A stretch of 64,000 nt of DNA, from sequence record NC_028894.1; one strand, given 5' to 3'. Position 1 is the stretch's first letter. Each line of letters starts with the position of its first letter. Positions 14,258-38,068 of this stretch are shown in pieces. This stretch comes from Escherichia phage vB_EcoM_VR20. Both the position numbers and the translations under genes were made by a program. The notes beneath the pieces are model-generated. The model was not told the DNA's origin. It saw only the letters and a program-made list of their open reading frames with translations, and did no database searches.

Positions 14258-15106
14258 TTAATCCTTAAGCAATTCAATAACGTTCATCAGTTTTTGACGT
14301 TCAGCTTTTGCTGCACTGTTCAGTCCTGACAGGCGGAAAATTTCATCATCTTGTTGCTGGATGGTGATGTTAAGTTCTTCAATCTGTTTAGTGAAAAGCT
14401 CAATTTGCTCTGAATATTTTTCATTGCTTCGCACTGGAACAGGTTCCATTTTAGGAGCTTGCTCTGAAGGACTATCAACTACAACTCGGTCTTTAATTTG
14501 ACATAATTTAATACGCTGGACGCCTCCAGTTTTAACATCATAAAATACAAGAATTCCATGGGTCTCTAGTTCAGACAAAGCCAAACGGAGGTGGAATTTC
14601 CAGTTTTCGTATTGACATCCGCTAAAAGAAGAAATACTGTATTCGCCTTCATTTTGACCTTTAATAACATTAAATAGTTTGTAATCTAAAGAATTATTGG
14701 TTTTAAAGGTCATTTGTTTATCTTGACCGCTTGCCAGACGAGCACCAAGAGCTAATAAACGTCGTTGGTTAGTATGAAGGTCTTTGACCACTTCATCAAA
14801 TGTCATGGTGCTAATCGCACGACCATAAAGGTCATAACCTTTATTATAATTTTTAAGTAAAATTTTGGCATTAGCACGAGACAACATACCCGAACGTTGA
14901 AGAGATTTCATGACTCGGTCTTCTAATGTAAGCAAGCCCGTTGTTTTATTAAAGATTTTAGTGAATTCAGCAGAATTAGTACAAACATTGAACTTATTCC
15001 ACATCATATATAAAACATTTAAAACCACATCTTTAGTGCTCGGAATACTGTTAAATTTAACAACTTTTTTAACTTCAGAACGAATTTCATTAATTGCTTG
15101 TGACAT
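14258..15106 (-). CDS. Hypothetical protein with C-terminal coiled coil
   Basis: 282 aa; C-terminus ...EQIELFTKQIEELNITIQQQDDEIFRL...RQKLMNVIELLKD. Confidence 0.5.
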   Translation of the reverse strand: MSQAINEIRSEVKKVVKFNSIPSTKDVVLNVLYMMWNKFNVCTNSAEFTKIFNKTTGLLTLEDRVMKSLQRSGMLSRANAKILLKNYNKGYDLYGRAISTMTFDEVVKDLHTNQRRLLALGARLASGQDKQMTFKTNNSLDYKLFNVIKGQNEGEYSISSFSGCQYENWKFHLRLALSELETHGILVFYDVKTGGVQRIKLCQIKDRVVVDSPSEQAPKMEPVPVRSNEKYSEQIELFTKQIEELNITIQQQDDEIFRLSGLNSAAKAERQKLMNVIELLKD

Positions 15107-15169
15107 ATTATTTTCCTCAATAGATTAATCAAAGGTCAGAACCATTATACCATCCTTGGTATAAAGCGT

Positions 15170-15694
15170 TTATGCGAGAACCGTCTTTAAACGCTCTTCA
15201 AACTTCTGAAGGAGTACATGGCGCTCTGCTCTTTGTTTGATATAGGTTTCAATACGCTCTGAAGTGAGATTGTATTGTTCATTAACTGATTCCCTCATGA
15301 ATTCAGGAATCTCTTTACATGCTTTGATTTCATTGAACTTATCAAGCACCGCTTGTTGTTCAGCAATCAGACCATCATAATATTGGATATCTGATTTGAT
15401 GTTTTGTACATCAGATTCAGTAGGCATATTTTTCTTTGCTCTTGCCGCTTGATATTCTGCATTAGTCTCTCTTGACCAGAACAAAGAGCGGTTTTTGTTG
15501 GTGTTTTTATATACATCAACAATACCAACTGAATCAACAGTCACAATCCAGTTCCAGGCGTTTTTATAAGTTTGACCACCTGATACTGTAATCTCACCCG
15601 CACAAGCAACATCATTAAAGAACTTGCTTTGCGCTTCTGATTTAAAATTACCATTATTGTAATTAATCAGATTAAAGATTGATTTAGCTTCCAT
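15170..15694 (-). CDS. Hypothetical protein
   Basis: 174 aa ORF preceded by class II leader cassette. Confidence 0.45.
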   Translation of the reverse strand: MEAKSIFNLINYNNGNFKSEAQSKFFNDVACAGEITVSGGQTYKNAWNWIVTVDSVGIVDVYKNTNKNRSLFWSRETNAEYQAARAKKNMPTESDVQNIKSDIQYYDGLIAEQQAVLDKFNEIKACKEIPEFMRESVNEQYNLTSERIETYIKQRAERHVLLQKFEERLKTVLA

Positions 15695-15699
15695 TTTAT

Positions 15700-15760
15700 T
15701 CTCCAGTATTTGGTAACTCAGTATGGGAACATTATACGTCTATCCCCATACTATGTACAC
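15700..15760 (-). promoter_or_regulatory. Class II promoter/leader cassette
   Basis: GTGTACA...CGTATAATGTTCCCATACTGAGTTACCAAATACTGGAGAATAAA-ATG. Confidence 0.45.
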
Positions 15761-15762
15761 CT

Positions 15763-16065
15763 TTAATTAAAAGTTCTTTCAGTATTTTCACCACTGAACC
15801 AGACGCTCTTAACAGCTTGCTGGGCACGATGAAGCTGCTCTGCCATATAAACACCAAGGGCCTCAGCTTTACGTGTCCTGTGGGCTTCTGCGGCGACCAT
15901 TTGCAGCTTATCCATCATGATAAGAGCTTTACATTTCTCCTTCAGAGCATATCGCTTTTTCTCTTCTGGAGTTTTGACCATTCCTCTTAACTTGTGCATT
16001 TTCAACTTAAAATGGTCAGCAGATTTCAGACATGCCTCAATCATGTCAAGTTCATACTTTTTCAT
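15763..16065 (-). CDS. Hypothetical basic helical protein
   Basis: 100 aa ORF. Confidence 0.4.
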   Translation of the reverse strand: MKKYELDMIEACLKSADHFKLKMHKLRGMVKTPEEKKRYALKEKCKALIMMDKLQMVAAEAHRTRKAEALGVYMAEQLHRAQQAVKSVWFSGENTERTFN

Positions 16066-16071
16066 AATTCC

Positions 16072-16290
16072 TCACTTGCGACGACGTTTTGGTAATGGTT
16101 TAGGGAAGAACATTGCTTTACCTGCAGGGGTCAAAGTCACACGCAAAGCATTACCAATACCAAGGGATGCTTTAACCAGACCTTTGGCTTTTAACTCGCC
16201 AAATGCTTGACGTTGTTCAGGGTCACGAGTGTTAACCATCAGACCTTTTTCACCAGCAGCTTTGATTAATTCTAACATTTTATTCTCCAT
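16072..16290 (-). CDS. Hypothetical small basic protein
   Basis: 72 aa; preceded by class II leader cassette and terminator. Confidence 0.4.
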   Translation of the reverse strand: MENKMLELIKAAGEKGLMVNTRDPEQRQAFGELKAKGLVKASLGIGNALRVTLTPAGKAMFFPKPLPKRRRK

Positions 16291-16291
16291 T

Positions 16292-16350
16292 TGTTTATTT
16301 GGTAACTCAGTATGGAATCATTATGCATCATGACCATCTGGTTGTACACT
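16292..16350 (-). promoter_or_regulatory. Class II promoter/leader cassette
   Basis: GTGTACA-17bp-GCATAATGATTCCATACTGAGTTACCAAATAAACAAATGGAGAATAAA-ATG. Confidence 0.5.
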
Positions 16351-16356
16351 ACTTTT

Positions 16357-16386
16357 TAAAATAAAAAAGGACCCCGAAGGGTCCTT
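16357..16386 (-). terminator. Rho-independent terminator
   Basis: GGACCCcgaaGGGTCC hairpin followed on minus strand by TTTTTTATTTT; immediately downstream of 16392..17402. Confidence 0.6.
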
Positions 16387-16391
16387 AGAAT

Positions 16392-17402
16392 TTAACGATA
16401 ATAGGAATTGTGGTTGTCAAGATATACCTCTTCAACAAACTTGTCCCAGAACTTCATGTCTACCTTATCAGGCATACCATTCTTAGCGGCCCAGATGGCA
16501 TTAGTTTCGACTTCATCAATGATAGCTTCAAGTTCGGCCTGTACATCTTTAAAAGCATGAAGCCCTTGTTTGATTTCAAGGATAAATGGTGCTGTACGTA
16601 AAGGATATTGGAGGTCACCAGTTTGATAGATTTCCTTCAACTGGTATCCAGCACGATAAGCATGGCTCAGAGCTTTCCAGTCAATACCTTCATTGGCTTC
16701 TGCCTTACGAGCACGTTCACCATATTCGGCATCGAGTTTATTCAGAGATTGCTTGAGCTCGATTAAAGACAAGGTGGTTTGGTACTTACGTCCAAGAACA
16801 GTATAGAACGTTTGAGGGCCTGTTTTCTCGTGGTTATGGAATACCCATTCACAGAACTCATTTTCAGGGAGTCGATGTTTGATATCTTCTACCTTAGTGC
16901 GACGTTGCTTAGTCGAACCATCTTCTTGATAGTCGACCCACTGTTCAGGAATCTGGTTAACGATTGCCAGTACACCACGTAGAGCGGCCAATCGAGAACC
17001 TTTAACACCATACTTAGAAGCTTGCTTGCGGACATAACCCAAATAGGCTTTCATGTTAGTTGTATAGAACCGTGAACGGTTATCCTGGATAAACTTCCAT
17101 ACATCTGGTAAATCGGATTTGACAACCAGGTCAGCCGGGGTGTGAATCATATCCAGGGCAACGGTTTCGCCTTCGGCCGCCAGTTTAAAGAAATATTTCA
17201 GACTATAAAGTTCATGGTCAACATCATCTTTTGTATTTTTGGTAGCCGTGTTATTCGTGTTCAGGTTGGTATGGTTCATCGCCGTCCCAAGTAGAATATC
17301 ACGAGGATGTGGAACAAAGATTTCTTTAAAATCGACATCAGATTCTGGGGTACTTGTTCCATAAAGGTGGCTACCGAAGTAGCCTTTCATAACTGTTCTC
17401 AT
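16392..17402 (-). CDS. Predicted nucleotidyltransferase-fold protein (Pol-beta superfamily-like)
   Basis: 336 aa; N-terminal GSHLYGTSTPESDVDFK fits G[SG]x9-13[DE]h[DE]h signature; start at internal Met with GAGGA SD; ATGA overlap with upstream membrane ORF. Confidence 0.5.
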   Translation of the reverse strand: MRTVMKGYFGSHLYGTSTPESDVDFKEIFVPHPRDILLGTAMNHTNLNTNNTATKNTKDDVDHELYSLKYFFKLAAEGETVALDMIHTPADLVVKSDLPDVWKFIQDNRSRFYTTNMKAYLGYVRKQASKYGVKGSRLAALRGVLAIVNQIPEQWVDYQEDGSTKQRRTKVEDIKHRLPENEFCEWVFHNHEKTGPQTFYTVLGRKYQTTLSLIELKQSLNKLDAEYGERARKAEANEGIDWKALSHAYRAGYQLKEIYQTGDLQYPLRTAPFILEIKQGLHAFKDVQAELEAIIDEVETNAIWAAKNGMPDKVDMKFWDKFVEEVYLDNHNSYYR

Positions 17403-17851
17403 TTTTTGTCCTCGAAGTGGATTACAGGACACATCTTAGATTTACGAGCTTTAATGTATTGAATAACGATGTTTTCTTTAGTTTCCTTTCCTTCACGTTT
17501 GGCTAGAATACGTTGCCATTCCTTTTCTTCTTTATGTAAATCATACCAGGACCATAAATTCATTAGACCATACATTAAACCAAATGCTACCGCCAGAATA
17601 AGAGCCAGTGTAGCTAGTCCTAAAATAAACCCTAAGCCTAAACCGACCGGGGTACTTAATACAAAGAAATGCTCTAATACACCGGCCCCCGCGACAGTTA
17701 ATCCAAAAACCATACTACCGATAAAAATGGCACAAACAAAACAAGCCCAAACCATTTTCCAAAAGTAAGCACACAATGAGTGTGGACGAGAATGGCGGTC
17801 ATAAAAACGGTCATGGAAGCGAGCGTGCCAAGAGTTTGCATTGATAATCAT
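17399..17851 (-). CDS. Integral membrane protein
   Basis: 150 aa; hydrophobic segments FVCAIFIGSMVFGLTVAGAGVL and LGLGFILGLATLALILAVAFGLMYGL. Confidence 0.5.
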   Translation of the reverse strand: MIINANSWHARFHDRFYDRHSRPHSLCAYFWKMVWACFVCAIFIGSMVFGLTVAGAGVLEHFFVLSTPVGLGLGFILGLATLALILAVAFGLMYGLMNLWSWYDLHKEEKEWQRILAKREGKETKENIVIQYIKARKSKMCPVIHFEDKK

Positions 17852-17861
17852 AATATTTTCC

Positions 17862-18419
17862 TTAAGAGTTCATAGTTGGGATAACAGAGTTCAGATAAGA
17901 GACTAAAACTTTTAGCTCGTCCTTAGTAAATACCACTTCACTTTCACCGTCGTGGGTCTGAACGATGGATAATAAGTCACGACCCTCGTGTTGATGAACC
18001 GTAAGCTCTGTATTATAATCGCCTTCTTCGTCACCTTCAAACGTTTCACTAGAACGAATCAGTGCATCTTGACCAGGGACTTTCCATTCAACTTCTGGCT
18101 TGCATTCTTCCTGGAAGAGTTTGAAAATACAATCAAAGAATTTATCAGAATCGCTGATGCTCAGACATTCAATACCATTTTCCAGATTAAACCCGTTTTC
18201 GTTTTTATAGATATAGGCATACATATCATCATTGATATCAATAGGAGCACTAGCACGACCATTAAGATAATCGTGTCTATCCAAAACCATTAAATCATAA
18301 AGCGGTTTAATATCAGCGATAGTCAGCACGATTTTATCGTCTTCTTGTGAAAGCTCAATTGCGTTATTAACTACTTCAGCGGTCAGTTCGCCAAACAATT
18401 CAGTTGTTTCAATAATCAT
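17862..18419 (-). CDS. Hypothetical acidic protein
   Basis: 185 aa ORF. Confidence 0.45.
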   Translation of the reverse strand: MIIETTELFGELTAEVVNNAIELSQEDDKIVLTIADIKPLYDLMVLDRHDYLNGRASAPIDINDDMYAYIYKNENGFNLENGIECLSISDSDKFFDCIFKLFQEECKPEVEWKVPGQDALIRSSETFEGDEEGDYNTELTVHQHEGRDLLSIVQTHDGESEVVFTKDELKVLVSYLNSVIPTMNS

Positions 18420-18429
18420 TTTCTGTTCC

Positions 18430-18720
18430 TCAACGGTTATGTTTTAAAATACTATAAAGAGCTTCTACTTGGCTTGCATCCAGGTAAATAACATCATCAT
18501 CTTGCTCAATGGAAATCCCACCAGTATTGCCTTCAACGAAATTACATTCGCACACTTCAACGGGGCGGTATACGTCACCAACTGGATGTTCAGGCTCCAG
18601 AACAATCACACCATTTTCAGAATTACCACTTGGGTCGTATAACATTACAGTTTCCTCGCTAACCATGAAAAGAATAAACCAATTAAAACAGGCCCTACAG
18701 CCATTATTAACCAAGCCCAA
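18430..18720 (-). CDS. Hypothetical protein
   Basis: 96 aa ORF. Confidence 0.35.
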   Translation of the reverse strand: MGLVNNGCRACFNWFILFMVSEETVMLYDPSGNSENGVIVLEPEHPVGDVYRPVEVCECNFVEGNTGGISIEQDDDVIYLDASQVEALYSILKHNR

Positions 18721-18736
18721 GGTTCAAGATAGTAAA

Positions 18737-18994
18737 TCATCTCATGCTCCTATGCCAACAGTTACGTGGCTCACGTTTAAAAATTTCATCATGCATTGAT
18801 TGACAACCAACACAATATATCACACCTTTAATCGCTTGTCTCCGCGCTTCAGGAATTTTTTCGTCGCAGTCAAAACAGAATTCAGCAGACTCCCTTTCAA
18901 CTGCAACCTGTGCTCTCGCATAGGTGATAGCGGCTTGTACAACCGCTTCCATCTCTAACTGTTCAGCGCCATCTTTTGCAAATCCAACAGCCAT
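18737..18994 (-). CDS. TraR/DksA-type C4 zinc-finger protein
   Basis: 85 aa; CFDCDEKIPEARRQAIKGVIYCVGCQ (CxxC-x17-CxxC) after an N-terminal helix. Confidence 0.5.
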   Translation of the reverse strand: MAVGFAKDGAEQLEMEAVVQAAITYARAQVAVERESAEFCFDCDEKIPEARRQAIKGVIYCVGCQSMHDEIFKREPRNCWHRSMR

Positions 18995-19176
18995 TATTCT
19001 TTCAACCCATTCAGATATTCAACCAAATTAGCTTTAGAGTTATTCAAATCACGCTTACACTGTTCTATTCCAGAATATGAATATCCTTCACATAATTCCA
19101 CTGCCAGGTCATTAGATGCGTTTTCAATATGCCAGGCAAGTTTAATAATTTTTTCAATTTGTTCAGTAGTTAACAT
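18994..19176 (-). CDS. Hypothetical protein
   Basis: 60 aa ORF. Confidence 0.3.
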   Translation of the reverse strand: MLTTEQIEKIIKLAWHIENASNDLAVELCEGYSYSGIEQCKRDLNNSKANLVEYLNGLKE

Positions 19177-19180
19177 AATA

Positions 19181-19417
19181 TCACCAGTATTTGTTGATGG
19201 TAGAAATTAATTCTTGGACTTGAGTATTTTTCAGTTTACACCCGCAACTTTTTAATGTTTCTTTAAAAAGCTCAACCTCTTTAAGCTGTTCCTTTTCCAG
19301 GCGGATTCTGTACCCCCTGTAATCAGCAAATATGCTTCTGTCATCAAATATCTTAATTTCAAGAATATGATTGTTGGTTTCATATTCCAATGAAACCATA
19401 GTATTTGTAAGTTTCAT
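19181..19417 (-). CDS. Hypothetical protein
   Basis: 78 aa ORF. Confidence 0.35.
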   Translation of the reverse strand: MKLTNTMVSLEYETNNHILEIKIFDDRSIFADYRGYRIRLEKEQLKEVELFKETLKSCGCKLKNTQVQELISTINKYW

Positions 19418-19701
19418 TATTCCACCACATATGATAATGAGAAAATTGCTGATGAAAGATGAGTAGCATCTTCTTCACACAGTTCAAATGGAGCTTTCTG
19501 CAAGAGTTCAACCACTTCTTCATCAGTGGCACTGTCCATAAAGATTGCATAATCGTTAAGATAGATAACAACCTCATCACCAGTATTAACTGCATCAATC
19601 TTGATGTTCTTAATTCTCATTGTATTCTCCTCAGTAGTTGATGGGATAATAGTACACCCTTTTGATGAGGATGTAAACCCCCTAAATGAAAAAAGGTCCA
19701 C
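19417..19701 (-). CDS. Hypothetical protein
   Basis: 94 aa ORF preceded by class I promoter cassette. Confidence 0.4.
   Translation of the reverse strand: MDLFSFRGFTSSSKGCTIIPSTTEENTMRIKNIKIDAVNTGDEVVIYLNDYAIFMDSATDEEVVELLQKAPFELCEEDATHLSSAIFSLSYVVE
19630..19680 (-). promoter_or_regulatory. Class I early-promoter/leader cassette
   Basis: GTTTAC...GTGTACTATTATCCCATCAACTACTGAGGAGAA. Confidence 0.4.
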
Positions 19702-37910: not shown

Positions 37911-37987
37911 TGGTCGGGGTGGTGGGATTCTAACCCACAACCTACGGTTTAGAAGACCGTTGCTCTATACAATTGAGCTACACCCCG
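37911..37987 (-). tRNA. tRNA-Arg (anticodon UCU), CCA encoded
   Basis: Manual cloverleaf: acceptor CGGGGTG/CACCCCG, D-stem GCTC/GAGC, anticodon stem ACGGT/ACCGT, loop CTTCTAA, T-arm GTGGG-TTAGAAT-CCCAC. Confidence 0.8.
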
Positions 37988-37989
37988 AG

Positions 37990-38062
37990 TGGCCCCATCC
38001 GGACTTGAACCGGAAACCTGCCAGTTATGAGCCGGATGCTCTAACCAATTGAGCTACAGGGC
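37990..38062 (-). tRNA. tRNA with CAU anticodon (Met or Ile)
   Basis: Manual cloverleaf: acceptor GGCCCTG/TGGGGCC, D-arm GCTC-AATTGGTTA-GAGC, loop CTCATAA, T-arm TCCGG-TTCAAGT-CCGGA; one mismatch in anticodon stem. Confidence 0.7.
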
Positions 38063-38068
38063 CTAAAA

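What the first reader, a model, noticed from the sequence alone, without database searches (positions are those of the whole stretch)
16392..17851. Nucleotidyltransferase-fold protein translationally coupled to a multi-TM membrane protein
The 336 aa ORF has the Pol-beta-type signature GSHLYGTSTPESDVDFK near its N-terminus and a long helical C-terminal region. Its start overlaps (ATGA) the stop of an upstream 150 aa protein with several transmembrane helices. The pair is set between a class II promoter and a strong terminator. Such enzymes include nucleotide-second-messenger synthases and protein or RNA nucleotidylating enzymes, so a signalling or counter-defence role is plausible; function cannot be read from sequence.
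Basis: partly seen in the sequence, partly recalled or inferred. Interest (0 to 1): 0.6.

Follow-up and report, generated by a model that had tools for sequence, protein, structure and literature searches.

The report
Phage T4 NrdC.11-type RlaP nucleotidyltransferase
The 336-aa gene is the ortholog of phage T4 nrdC.11, a known and already annotated RlaP-family nucleotidyltransferase that most likely patches cut RNA ends during tRNA repair. The small membrane protein upstream is a fast-evolving neighbour typical of T4-like phages, not a demonstrated partner.

Summary
Both ORFs are real and lie on the minus strand. The 336-aa ORF is 16392-17402 and the 150-aa ORF is 17399-17851. They share an ATGA start/stop overlap, and a strong terminator follows the 336-aa gene. 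No promoter was found directly upstream.

The 336-aa protein is 81% identical to T4 NrdC.11. It passes Pfam's threshold for PF10127 (RlaP) and has relatives in 1517 phage records. Its GS...DxD motif and two further acidic residues are conserved across 141 homologs of 32-82% identity, and dN/dS is 0.01-0.1.

A 2025 preprint showed that two Pseudomonas RlaP enzymes add one or two nucleotides to RNA 3'-OH ends, preferring damaged tRNA. It names T4 NrdC.11 as an RlaP, in a different, untested cluster. Cellular relatives of the NrdC.11 type sit beside Pnkp, Hen1, RtcB and a canonical RlaP paralog, which supports a role in RNA repair.

The membrane protein has two long transmembrane helices and is found only in T4-like phages. 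It is missing in T4 itself, separated from nrdC.11 by other genes in many phages, and evolves much faster.

cGAS-like and Hailong-like readings are not supported. This is a known gene family of modest interest.

The parts
16392..17402 (-). nrdC.11 ortholog: 336-aa RlaP-family (PF10127) Pol-beta nucleotidyltransferase, stop codon included
   Evidence: ORF. 81% identical to T4 NrdC.11 over all 336 aa with no gaps. PF10127 E=5.9e-11, 43 bits against a cutoff of 23; phrog_388 E=4e-132. Annotated nrdC.11/nucleotidyltransferase in phage VR7. AF2 pLDDT 95.
17331..17375 (-). Catalytic motif G10-S11 ... D22-x-D24 (GSHLYGTSTPESDVD)
   Evidence: G10, D22 and D24 are invariant and S11 is >=90% conserved in 141 homologs. 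They align to G38-S39/D50/D52 of canonical RlaP.
17151..17219 (-). Further conserved acidic residues D62 (DDVDHE) and D84 (ALDMIH), candidates for the third metal ligand
   Evidence: Both are >=90% conserved. They align to invariant D83 and E105 of canonical RlaP.
16662..16910 (-). Residues ~165-247: beta-rich subdomain, long helix and the DWKAxSHA motif. This is the most constrained part of the protein.
   Evidence: 100% amino-acid identity to T4 across the block, while third-codon-position identity is only 53%. Strands at 154-208 and helix 213-235 in the model. H247 and R250 are invariant family-wide.
17399..17851 (-). 150-aa membrane protein found only in T4-like phages (phrog_944), with two long TM helices and cytoplasmic basic termini
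   Evidence: ORF and hydropathy. phrog_944 E=3e-56 and no Pfam family. AF2 helices at 26-62 and 67-119, pLDDT 74. 836 phage records. Conserved M-I-N..SWH, P.SLC.YFW and KA[RK]K.K.CP.I.F motifs.
17399..17402 (-). ATGA start/stop overlap between the two genes
   Evidence: Read directly from the sequence.
17409..17413 (-). GAGGA Shine-Dalgarno for nrdC.11, 7 nt before the ATG and inside the membrane gene
   Evidence: Junction sequence.
17859..17863 (-). AAGGA Shine-Dalgarno for the membrane gene, overlapping the mobD.1 stop codon
   Evidence: Sequence.
16357..16386 (-). Intrinsic terminator: AAGGACCC-UUCG-GGGUCCUU followed by U6AU4
   Evidence: Terminator scan. RNA fold centroid -13.8 kcal/mol, z = -2.5.
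18012..18040 (-). Only nearby promoter-like site (TTGAAG-17-TATAAT), inside the mobD.1 coding sequence. Status uncertain.
   Evidence: Consensus scan, 10 of 12 matches. The region as a whole had 15 hits against 9 +/- 3 in shuffles.

Best explanation
The 336-aa gene is the ortholog of phage T4 nrdC.11 in a Gaprivervirus-type T4-like phage. It encodes a catalytically intact Pol-beta nucleotidyltransferase of the RlaP family (PF10127).

Shown here: its identity, the conservation of its active site, strong purifying selection, and the RNA-repair gene neighbourhood of its cellular relatives.

Inferred: it adds one or a few nucleotides, without a template, to the 3'-OH of cleaved RNA. The most likely substrate is tRNA trimmed in the anticodon loop by host anticodon nucleases of the RloC kind. 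The phage polynucleotide kinase-phosphatase (PseT) and RNA ligase 1, encoded elsewhere in the genome, could then reseal a full-length tRNA. This would make it a dispensable, conditionally useful counter-defence enzyme.

The upstream 150-aa two-TM protein is a separate, fast-evolving accessory gene of T4-like phages with unknown function. Its ATGA overlap with nrdC.11 reflects the tight gene packing of these genomes, not a dedicated two-component system.
For: Identity:
- 81% identical to T4 NrdC.11 over the full length.
- 1517 phage records encode a relative, 1438 of them near full length.
- The VR7 and T4 RefSeq records annotate it as nrdC.11 / nucleotidyltransferase.
- PF10127 is passed above the gathering score, and 139 of 141 diverse homologs also hit it.

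Active enzyme:
- G10, D22 and D24 are invariant. S11, D62 and D84 are >=90% conserved and align to the invariant acidic residues of canonical RlaP.
- dN/dS is 0.01-0.1.
- The confident model shows an NTase domain, a helical domain and a C-terminal helix.

Mechanism:
- PfRlaP and PaRlaP add 1-2 NMP to RNA 3'-OH, not to DNA or protein. They prefer nicked-tRNA mimics and restore aminoacylation of a tRNA missing one nucleotide. The same preprint names T4 NrdC.11 as an RlaP in its cluster 5 (PMC12776372).
- Of 80 cellular loci encoding full-length NrdC.11-type relatives, 14 carry at least one of Hen1 (7), Pnkp (5) or RtcB (9), and 24 carry a canonical RlaP paralog within 6 kb.
- The closely related phage VR7 encodes pseT and rnlA.
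- A fragment spanning nrdC.11 to mobD.3 can be deleted from T4 without loss of viability (PMC9825161), which fits an accessory role.

Membrane gene not a partner:
- It has no homolog in the T4 nrdD-tk region, where mobD occupies its place (PMC2988022).
- It abuts nrdC.11 in only 12 of 78 viral loci. It is separated by other genes in 36 and not found within 4 kb in 30.
- The intervening genes are a homing endonuclease and proteins of phrog_10164 and phrog_12852. Several of them also overlap the nrdC.11 start by ATGA.
- The membrane protein is 77% identical where the NTase is 97-99% identical.
Against: - No NrdC.11-type enzyme has been assayed. The characterised RlaPs belong to another cluster.
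- Profile-profile similarity to canonical RlaP covers only the N-terminal ~90 residues (E=3.4e-5, probability 72%).
- The C-terminal 240 residues, including the most constrained beta-subdomain, have no characterised counterpart.
- The tandem arrangement with a canonical RlaP in cellular genomes suggests a different substrate or activity, not a redundant one.
- In this phage the gene is not next to any RNA ligase. None was found in the 64-kb window.
- The closest solved folds are HalB, a DNA-synthesising NTase, and small-molecule adenylyltransferases.
- The membrane gene does stay upstream on the same strand in 48 of 78 loci across several genera. A functional link is therefore not excluded.
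Confidence: 0.6

Rival explanations
1. The membrane protein and the nucleotidyltransferase form a functional two-gene module that resembles Hailong in layout. In Hailong, the transmembrane protein HalA is gated by a nucleic-acid product of the NTase HalB. The phage pair could be a phage-borne system or a mimic that interferes with such defences.
For: - Hailong is a two-gene operon of a TM protein and an NTase (review PMC13434031).
- Here a TM gene sits directly upstream with an ATGA overlap.
- The membrane gene stays upstream on the same strand in 48 of 78 viral loci.
Against: - Similarity to HalB is at fold level only: 12% identity, no hit when the family profile is searched against PDB sequences, and no PADLOC hit for either protein.
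- The 150-aa two-helix protein gives no fold match to HalA or to anything else. It lacks the large cytoplasmic domain described for HalA.
- T4 keeps nrdC.11 without the membrane gene.
- Other genes are inserted between the two in many phages.
- The cellular relatives' neighbour sets showed no recurrent membrane protein; the largest such cluster covered 2 loci.
- The two genes evolve at very different rates.
Confidence: 0.1
2. The enzyme nucleotidylates something other than an RNA end. It could AMPylate a host or phage protein, as MntA-type MNT enzymes do to HEPN toxins, or adenylylate a small molecule, as KNTase, ANT(4') and LinB do. The result would be neutralisation of a host factor.
For: - The C-terminal two thirds are not alignable to canonical RlaP.
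- The subtype coexists in tandem with a canonical RlaP in cellular genomes, which hints at a distinct substrate.
Against: - Pfam places it in RlaP above threshold. The MntA model scores far below its cutoff (13 bits against 60).
- The recurrent neighbours of cellular relatives are RNA-repair enzymes (Pnkp, Hen1, RtcB), not toxins or antibiotic-resistance contexts.
- Characterised RlaPs did not label proteins or DNA (PMC12776372).
Confidence: 0.15
3. It is a nucleotide second-messenger synthase (cGAS/DncV-like CD-NTase), or a synthase of decoy signals.
For: It has a Pol-beta fold with intact catalytic carboxylates. That is the only supporting evidence.
Against: - No PADLOC (CBASS and similar) hits.
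- The architecture is a minimal NTase plus a helical bundle, not the CD-NTase bilobal fold.
- No cyclic-nucleotide effector or sponge gene lies adjacent.
Confidence: 0.03

Closest known systems
Bacteriophage T4 NrdC.11 (NP_049709, annotated 'nucleotidyltransferase')
   Same: 81% identity over all 336 residues without gaps. It occupies the same position in the nrdC-mobD-rI early region, downstream of mobD.1 on the same strand. This is the orthologous gene.
   Different: In T4 the gene immediately upstream is the homing endonuclease mobD; here it is a 150-aa membrane protein. T4 has nrdC.10 downstream, whereas this phage has a 72-aa homolog of RB69 ORF102c.
RlaP family (Pfam PF10127), characterised members PfRlaP and PaRlaP from the Pseudomonas rtcB-rlaP-rtcA operons (PMC12776372)
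   Same: Both pass the Pfam family threshold. Both have the GS...DxD motif plus a further conserved acidic residue, and an N-terminal NTase domain followed by a C-terminal helical domain. Within the subtype, both are associated with RNA-repair genes in cellular genomes.
   Different: The subtype here is longer (336 against ~250-265 aa). It is alignable only over the first ~90 residues. It carries a beta-rich insertion and a different C-terminal region. The preprint places it in a separate sequence cluster, cluster 5. Its activity is untested. In this phage it is not adjacent to an RNA ligase.
Hailong HalB nucleotidyltransferase (PDB 9dbh), paired with the membrane effector HalA
   Different: 12% identity and no sequence-level relationship. 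HalB is 217 aa and makes protein-primed oligo-dA. The membrane protein here is a 150-aa helical hairpin with no match to HalA. The context is a phage early region, not a bacterial defence operon.
Kanamycin nucleotidyltransferase / ANT(4') and 3c18-type 'nucleotidyltransferase-like' proteins
   Same: All combine a minimal NTase domain with a C-terminal helical substrate-binding domain in one chain.

Membership tests
RlaP (Pfam PF10127) | Sequence match to the family model above Pfam's gathering score | tested here: met
   43 bits against a cutoff of 23, E=5.9e-11. 139 of 141 homologs also match. The match covers only residues 8-134 of the protein, profile positions 25-142 of 249.
RlaP (Pfam PF10127) | Pol-beta catalytic signature: hG[GS], then DxD, plus a third conserved carboxylate | tested here: met
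   G10, D22 and D24 are invariant. S11, D62 and D84 are >=90% conserved in 141 sequences. They align to invariant G38-S39/D50/D52/D83/E105 of canonical RlaP.
RlaP (Pfam PF10127) | C-terminal helical domain homologous to that of canonical RlaP | tested here: inconclusive
   The model has C-terminal helices and a terminal helix. hhalign finds no alignment beyond residue ~90. No RlaP structure was retrievable from the PDB copy.
RlaP (Pfam PF10127) | Genomic association with RNA ligases or RNA-repair genes | tested here: inconclusive
   Not met locally: no RNA ligase or RtcB in the 64-kb window, and none adjacent in 77 of 78 viral loci. Met for cellular relatives of the same subtype: 14 of 80 loci carry Hen1, Pnkp or RtcB. 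The related phage VR7 encodes pseT and rnlA about 85 kb away.
RlaP (Pfam PF10127) | Adds 1-2 NMP to RNA 3'-OH ends | not testable with these tools
   Shown only for PfRlaP and PaRlaP (PMC12776372). No assay of any NrdC.11-type protein was found in the literature searches.
T4 NrdC.11 orthologous group | Full-length high identity and conserved position in the nrdC-rI region of T4-like phages | tested here: met
   81% identity to T4 NrdC.11. The flanking genes are the same: nrdC.9, nrdC.8 and nrdC.6 downstream, mobD.1 upstream.
Hailong (HalA/HalB) | HalB-family NTase recognisable by sequence | tested here: not met
Hailong (HalA/HalB) | HalA-like transmembrane channel with a cytoplasmic oligonucleotide-binding domain | tested here: not met
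   The protein is a 150-aa two-helix hairpin. No Foldseek match with E<5. The model's confidence is only moderate.
CD-NTase / cGAS-DncV (CBASS) | CD-NTase fold and sequence family, with an adjacent effector | tested here: not met
   No PADLOC or Pfam hit. No CD-NTase among the top structural matches. No effector-like neighbour.
MNT/HEPN type VII toxin-antitoxin (MntA) | Match to the MntA model and an adjacent HEPN toxin gene | tested here: not met
   NF047752 scores 13.3 bits against a cutoff of 60. No HEPN gene is adjacent. The only resemblance is between the protein's own C-terminal helices and HEPN-like bundles.

The most novel reading that the evidence does not exclude
The NrdC.11-type 'long RlaP' may be a functionally distinct enzyme rather than a redundant RlaP. 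Three observations point that way. Its beta-rich subdomain and following helix (residues ~165-247) are frozen at the protein level between T4 and this phage despite saturated synonymous change. Its C-terminal two thirds are unrelated in sequence to canonical RlaP. In bacteria it sits in tandem with a canonical RlaP beside Pnkp/Hen1 or RtcB. It could recognise a specific damaged RNA or add a specific nucleotide, analogous to split CC-adding and A-adding enzymes. In T-even-like phages it might also work at the membrane with the upstream fast-evolving two-TM protein.
Probability: 0.15. Interest if true: 0.55.

Novelty: already known. Interest (0 to 1): 0.25.

Why it matters
The gene is a catalogued T4-family gene, so the finding adds no new kind of system. 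Its value is practical. NrdC.11 is conserved in more than 1500 sequenced phages and is under very strong purifying selection, yet it can be deleted in the laboratory. That pattern is typical of counter-defence genes.

If NrdC.11 restores nucleotides removed by 'smart' anticodon nucleases such as RloC, it would be the missing third activity of the classic T4 tRNA-repair pathway (PseT plus Rnl1). This can be tested directly with T4 genetics.

The analysis also flags two annotation issues. Many database records call this protein 'thioredoxin', an error carried over from the nrdC locus name. And the neighbouring membrane protein should not be assumed to be its partner.

Tried and rejected
- Sequence search of the protein and of the 141-sequence profile against PDB chains found nothing significant. 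No RlaP crystal structure could therefore be used as a reference.
- PADLOC gave no hits for either protein. NCBIfam gave only sub-threshold hits.
- Pattern searches for a T4 late promoter (TATAAATA) and for a MotA-box middle promoter found nothing near the pair.
- An Rfam scan of 15000-19500 returned only a sub-threshold hit on the terminator.
- My first script for finding the gene upstream of nrdC.11 in related loci picked spurious alternative-frame ORFs. I replaced it with an iterated HMM search for the membrane protein over all ORFs.
- The fold search with the membrane-protein model was uninformative.
- I considered whether the block that is 100% identical to T4 was a recent recombination or homing-endonuclease co-conversion tract. 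I rejected this because nucleotide identity there is only 70-87% and third-position identity is 53%.
- Tan et al. 2025 (Hailong) and Burroughs & Aravind 2016 (RlaP naming) are not held in the paper library. Statements about them rest on a review (PMC13434031) and on the RlaP preprint.
Full report
**What is there**

Both ORFs lie on the minus strand.
- The 336-aa ORF runs from the ATG at 17402 to the TAA at 16394-16392. A longer GTG-initiated reading of 346 aa exists. The homologs, however, are predominantly 336 aa, and the best ones align from query residue 1.
- The 150-aa ORF runs from 17851 to 17399.
- The junction reads GAGGACAAAAAATGAGA. The NTase start ATG overlaps the upstream TGA stop as ATGA, and a GAGGA Shine-Dalgarno sits 7 nt upstream.
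- The motif GSHLYGTSTPESDVDFK is at residues 10-26.
- Five nucleotides after the stop codon is a textbook intrinsic terminator, AAGGACCC-UUCG-GGGUCCUU followed by U6AU4. Its centroid energy is -13.8 kcal/mol.

**No promoter bounds the pair**

- The membrane gene starts 10 nt after the stop of the upstream gene, a mobD.1 homolog that matches PF24449 and PF24448.
- No T4 late-promoter box or MotA-box pattern lies nearby.
- The only candidate is a sigma-70-like TTGAAG-17-TATAAT inside mobD.1 at 18040-18012.
- The pair is therefore the 3' end of a long run of co-directional early-region genes. It is not a self-contained operon.

**Identity**

The window comes from a T4-like phage of the Gaprivervirus type. 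Region 15000-19000 is 91-96% identical to phages P479, TH41, CJ20 and VR7.

In VR7 the matching genes are annotated nrdC.11 (nucleotidyltransferase) and ORF102c (membrane protein). They sit between mobD.1 and nrdC.9.

The protein is 81% identical to T4 NrdC.11 over all 336 residues, without gaps. It matches Pfam PF10127 (RlaP) at 43 bits against a cutoff of 23, and phrog_388 ('nucleotidyltransferase') at E=4e-132.

tblastn finds relatives in 1517 phage records. An exhaustive HMMER search finds 3124 cluster representatives at 50% identity.

**Is it an active enzyme?**

I aligned 141 homologs of 32-82% identity.
- G10, S21, D22, D24, Y131, H247, R250 and P267 are invariant.
- S11, D60, D62, D84, K243 and others are at least 90% conserved.

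A profile-profile alignment to canonical RlaP pairs G10-S11, D22, D24, D62 and D84 with the invariant G38-S39, D50, D52, D83 and E105 of that group.

dN/dS against close relatives is 0.01-0.1.

AlphaFold2 gives a confident model (pLDDT 95, pTM 0.85) with four parts:
- an N-terminal alpha/beta NTase domain;
- a helical region;
- a beta-rich subdomain at residues ~154-208;
- a C-terminal helical bundle.

**What the family does**

A December 2025 preprint (PMC12776372) characterised two Pseudomonas RlaP enzymes.
- They add one or two NMPs, or dNMPs, to the 3'-OH of RNA.
- They do not act on DNA or protein.
- They prefer Mn2+ and favour the 5' half of a nicked tRNA mimic.
- They partly restore aminoacylation of a tRNA that has lost one anticodon-loop nucleotide.

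The authors propose that RlaP is an antidote to 'smart' ribotoxins such as RloC. They explicitly place T4 NrdC.11 in the family, in their cluster 5, whereas their own enzymes are in cluster 1a. An earlier comparative-genomics paper states the same prediction for phage RlaPs (PMC7824862).

**Independent support obtained here**

A scan of one genome per prokaryotic species returned 156 full-length NrdC.11-type relatives, of which 80 loci were kept. Within 6 kb of the gene:
- 24 loci carry a canonical, full-length RlaP paralog, mostly immediately downstream (PF10127 E=4e-75 for the representative);
- 7 carry Hen1;
- 5 carry a Pnkp-type kinase-phosphatase-ligase;
- 9 carry RtcB.

In all, 14 loci have at least one RNA-repair enzyme. 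The long subtype is therefore itself linked to RNA repair.

In phages the gene is not adjacent to a ligase. The close relative VR7 does encode PseT and Rnl1 elsewhere in its genome. A fragment spanning nrdC.11 to mobD.3 can be lost from viable T4 (PMC9825161), as expected for a conditional counter-defence gene.

**Limits of the inference**

- The NrdC.11 type is alignable to canonical RlaP only over about 90 N-terminal residues (hhalign E=3.4e-5, probability 72%).
- The rest of the protein has no characterised counterpart.
- No PDB chain is detectable by sequence.
- The tandem arrangement with a canonical RlaP suggests a non-redundant activity.
- Residues ~165-247 are 100% identical between T4 and this phage, although third-codon-position identity there is only 53%. 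This block covers the beta subdomain, the following helix and the DWKAxSHA motif. Selection on it is extreme, and it is variable in the wider family. It may be a specificity determinant.

**The membrane protein**

- Its hydrophobic stretch runs from about residue 26 to 103. It is modelled as two long helices at 26-62 and 67-119, with a short N-terminal amphipathic helix and a basic C-terminal tail (pLDDT 74).
- It matches phrog_944 but no Pfam, NCBIfam or PADLOC family.
- All detected homologs come from T4-like phages or unnamed metagenomic contigs.
- The family conserves M-I-N..SWH, P.SLC.YFW and KA[RK]K.K.CP.I.F motifs. That includes one His and two Cys on the predicted cytoplasmic side.

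**Is the membrane protein a partner of NrdC.11?**

I searched 78 viral loci centred on nrdC.11 with an iterated HMM.
- A homolog abuts nrdC.11 in 12 loci.
- It lies 0.35-2.4 kb upstream on the same strand, with other genes in between, in most of the other 36 loci that have one.
- It is absent within 4 kb in 30 loci.

The intervening genes are real phage families. One is a homing endonuclease, found in a phage whose NTase is 98% identical to this one. Others belong to phrog_10164 and phrog_12852, of unknown function. Several of these genes overlap the nrdC.11 start by the same ATGA.

In T4 itself the homing endonuclease mobD occupies the junction (PMC2988022). No homolog of the membrane protein exists anywhere in the 16-kb nrdD-tk region.

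The two genes also evolve at different rates. The membrane protein is 77% identical where the NTase is 97-99% identical, and dN/dS is 0.11-0.27 against 0.01-0.1.

The cellular relatives' neighbour sets showed no recurrent membrane protein. The simplest reading is inherited synteny plus tight gene packing, not a dedicated module. The Hailong-like reading (a TM protein plus an NTase) is worth recording because HalB is the top structural hit. It fails at the sequence level, and the membrane protein shows no match to HalA.

**Verdict**

The exceptions are the promoter and the details of the TM count and the C-terminal fold.

The gene, however, is the already catalogued T4 nrdC.11 of the RlaP family. 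Its most likely activity is RNA 3'-end nucleotide addition for tRNA repair, not signalling.

Novelty: already known. Interest is modest. The residual interest lies in the untested, structurally distinct long-RlaP subtype and its extremely constrained middle domain.

Noticed in passing
window 16662-16910 (-), residues ~165-247 of the NTase: This block is 100% identical in amino acids to T4 NrdC.11. Nucleotide identity there is only 70-87% and third-position identity is 53%, so this is extreme purifying selection, not recombination. The block covers a beta-rich subdomain that is variable in the wider family and absent from canonical RlaP.
   Followed up: partly
loci L084-L163 (for example L158 6001-7770, L142 2088-7784, L118, L161): In bacteria and archaea the NrdC.11-type long RlaP is often followed directly by a canonical full-length RlaP paralog (24 of 80 loci). 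It is sometimes flanked by Hen1, Pnkp or RtcB. Tandem paralogs suggest a division of labour between the two NTases.
   Followed up: partly
database names seen: Many GenBank and UniRef records name this protein 'thioredoxin', and one names it 'HNH homing endonuclease'. The protein has a Pol-beta NTase fold and matches Pfam RlaP. The name looks like an annotation error propagated from the nrdC locus label.
   Followed up: partly
window 17399-17851 (-): The membrane protein family conserves His9, Cys27 and Cys141 within the SWH, SLC.YFW and K.CP.I.F motifs, all on the predicted cytoplasmic side. This hints at a metal site or a redox/lipidation site. The protein diverges far faster than its neighbours: 31-35% identity in Tequatrovirus and Mosigvirus, against 68-82% for the NTase.
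   Followed up: partly
junction at window ~17399-17402; L004 3237-4001; T4 locus L083 12430-13209: The nrdC.11 / upstream-gene junction is a recurrent insertion point for free-standing homing endonucleases. T4 has mobD there, and a Gaprivervirus relative with a 98% identical NTase has a phrog_655 endonuclease there.
   Followed up: partly
window 16291-16391: The ~100-nt spacer after nrdC.11 holds the terminator and several sigma-70-like hexamer pairs (16348-16320, 16305-16277, 16297-16269) ahead of the 72-aa gene that resembles RB69 ORF102c. At this spot VR7 carries two extra small ORFs (ORF099c, ORF100c) that are absent here.
   Followed up: no
window 17862-18419 (-): The upstream neighbour is a MobD.1 homolog. 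It matches the recent Pfam families T4_y05I_N and T4_y05I_C ('putative transcription factor') at E=1.6e-36 and 4.9e-20.
   Followed up: no
window 37911-38063 (-): Only two phage tRNA genes were found in the window, tRNA-Arg(TCT) and tRNA-Met(CAT), lying side by side. This is relevant background for any story about tRNA-directed defence and repair.
   Followed up: no
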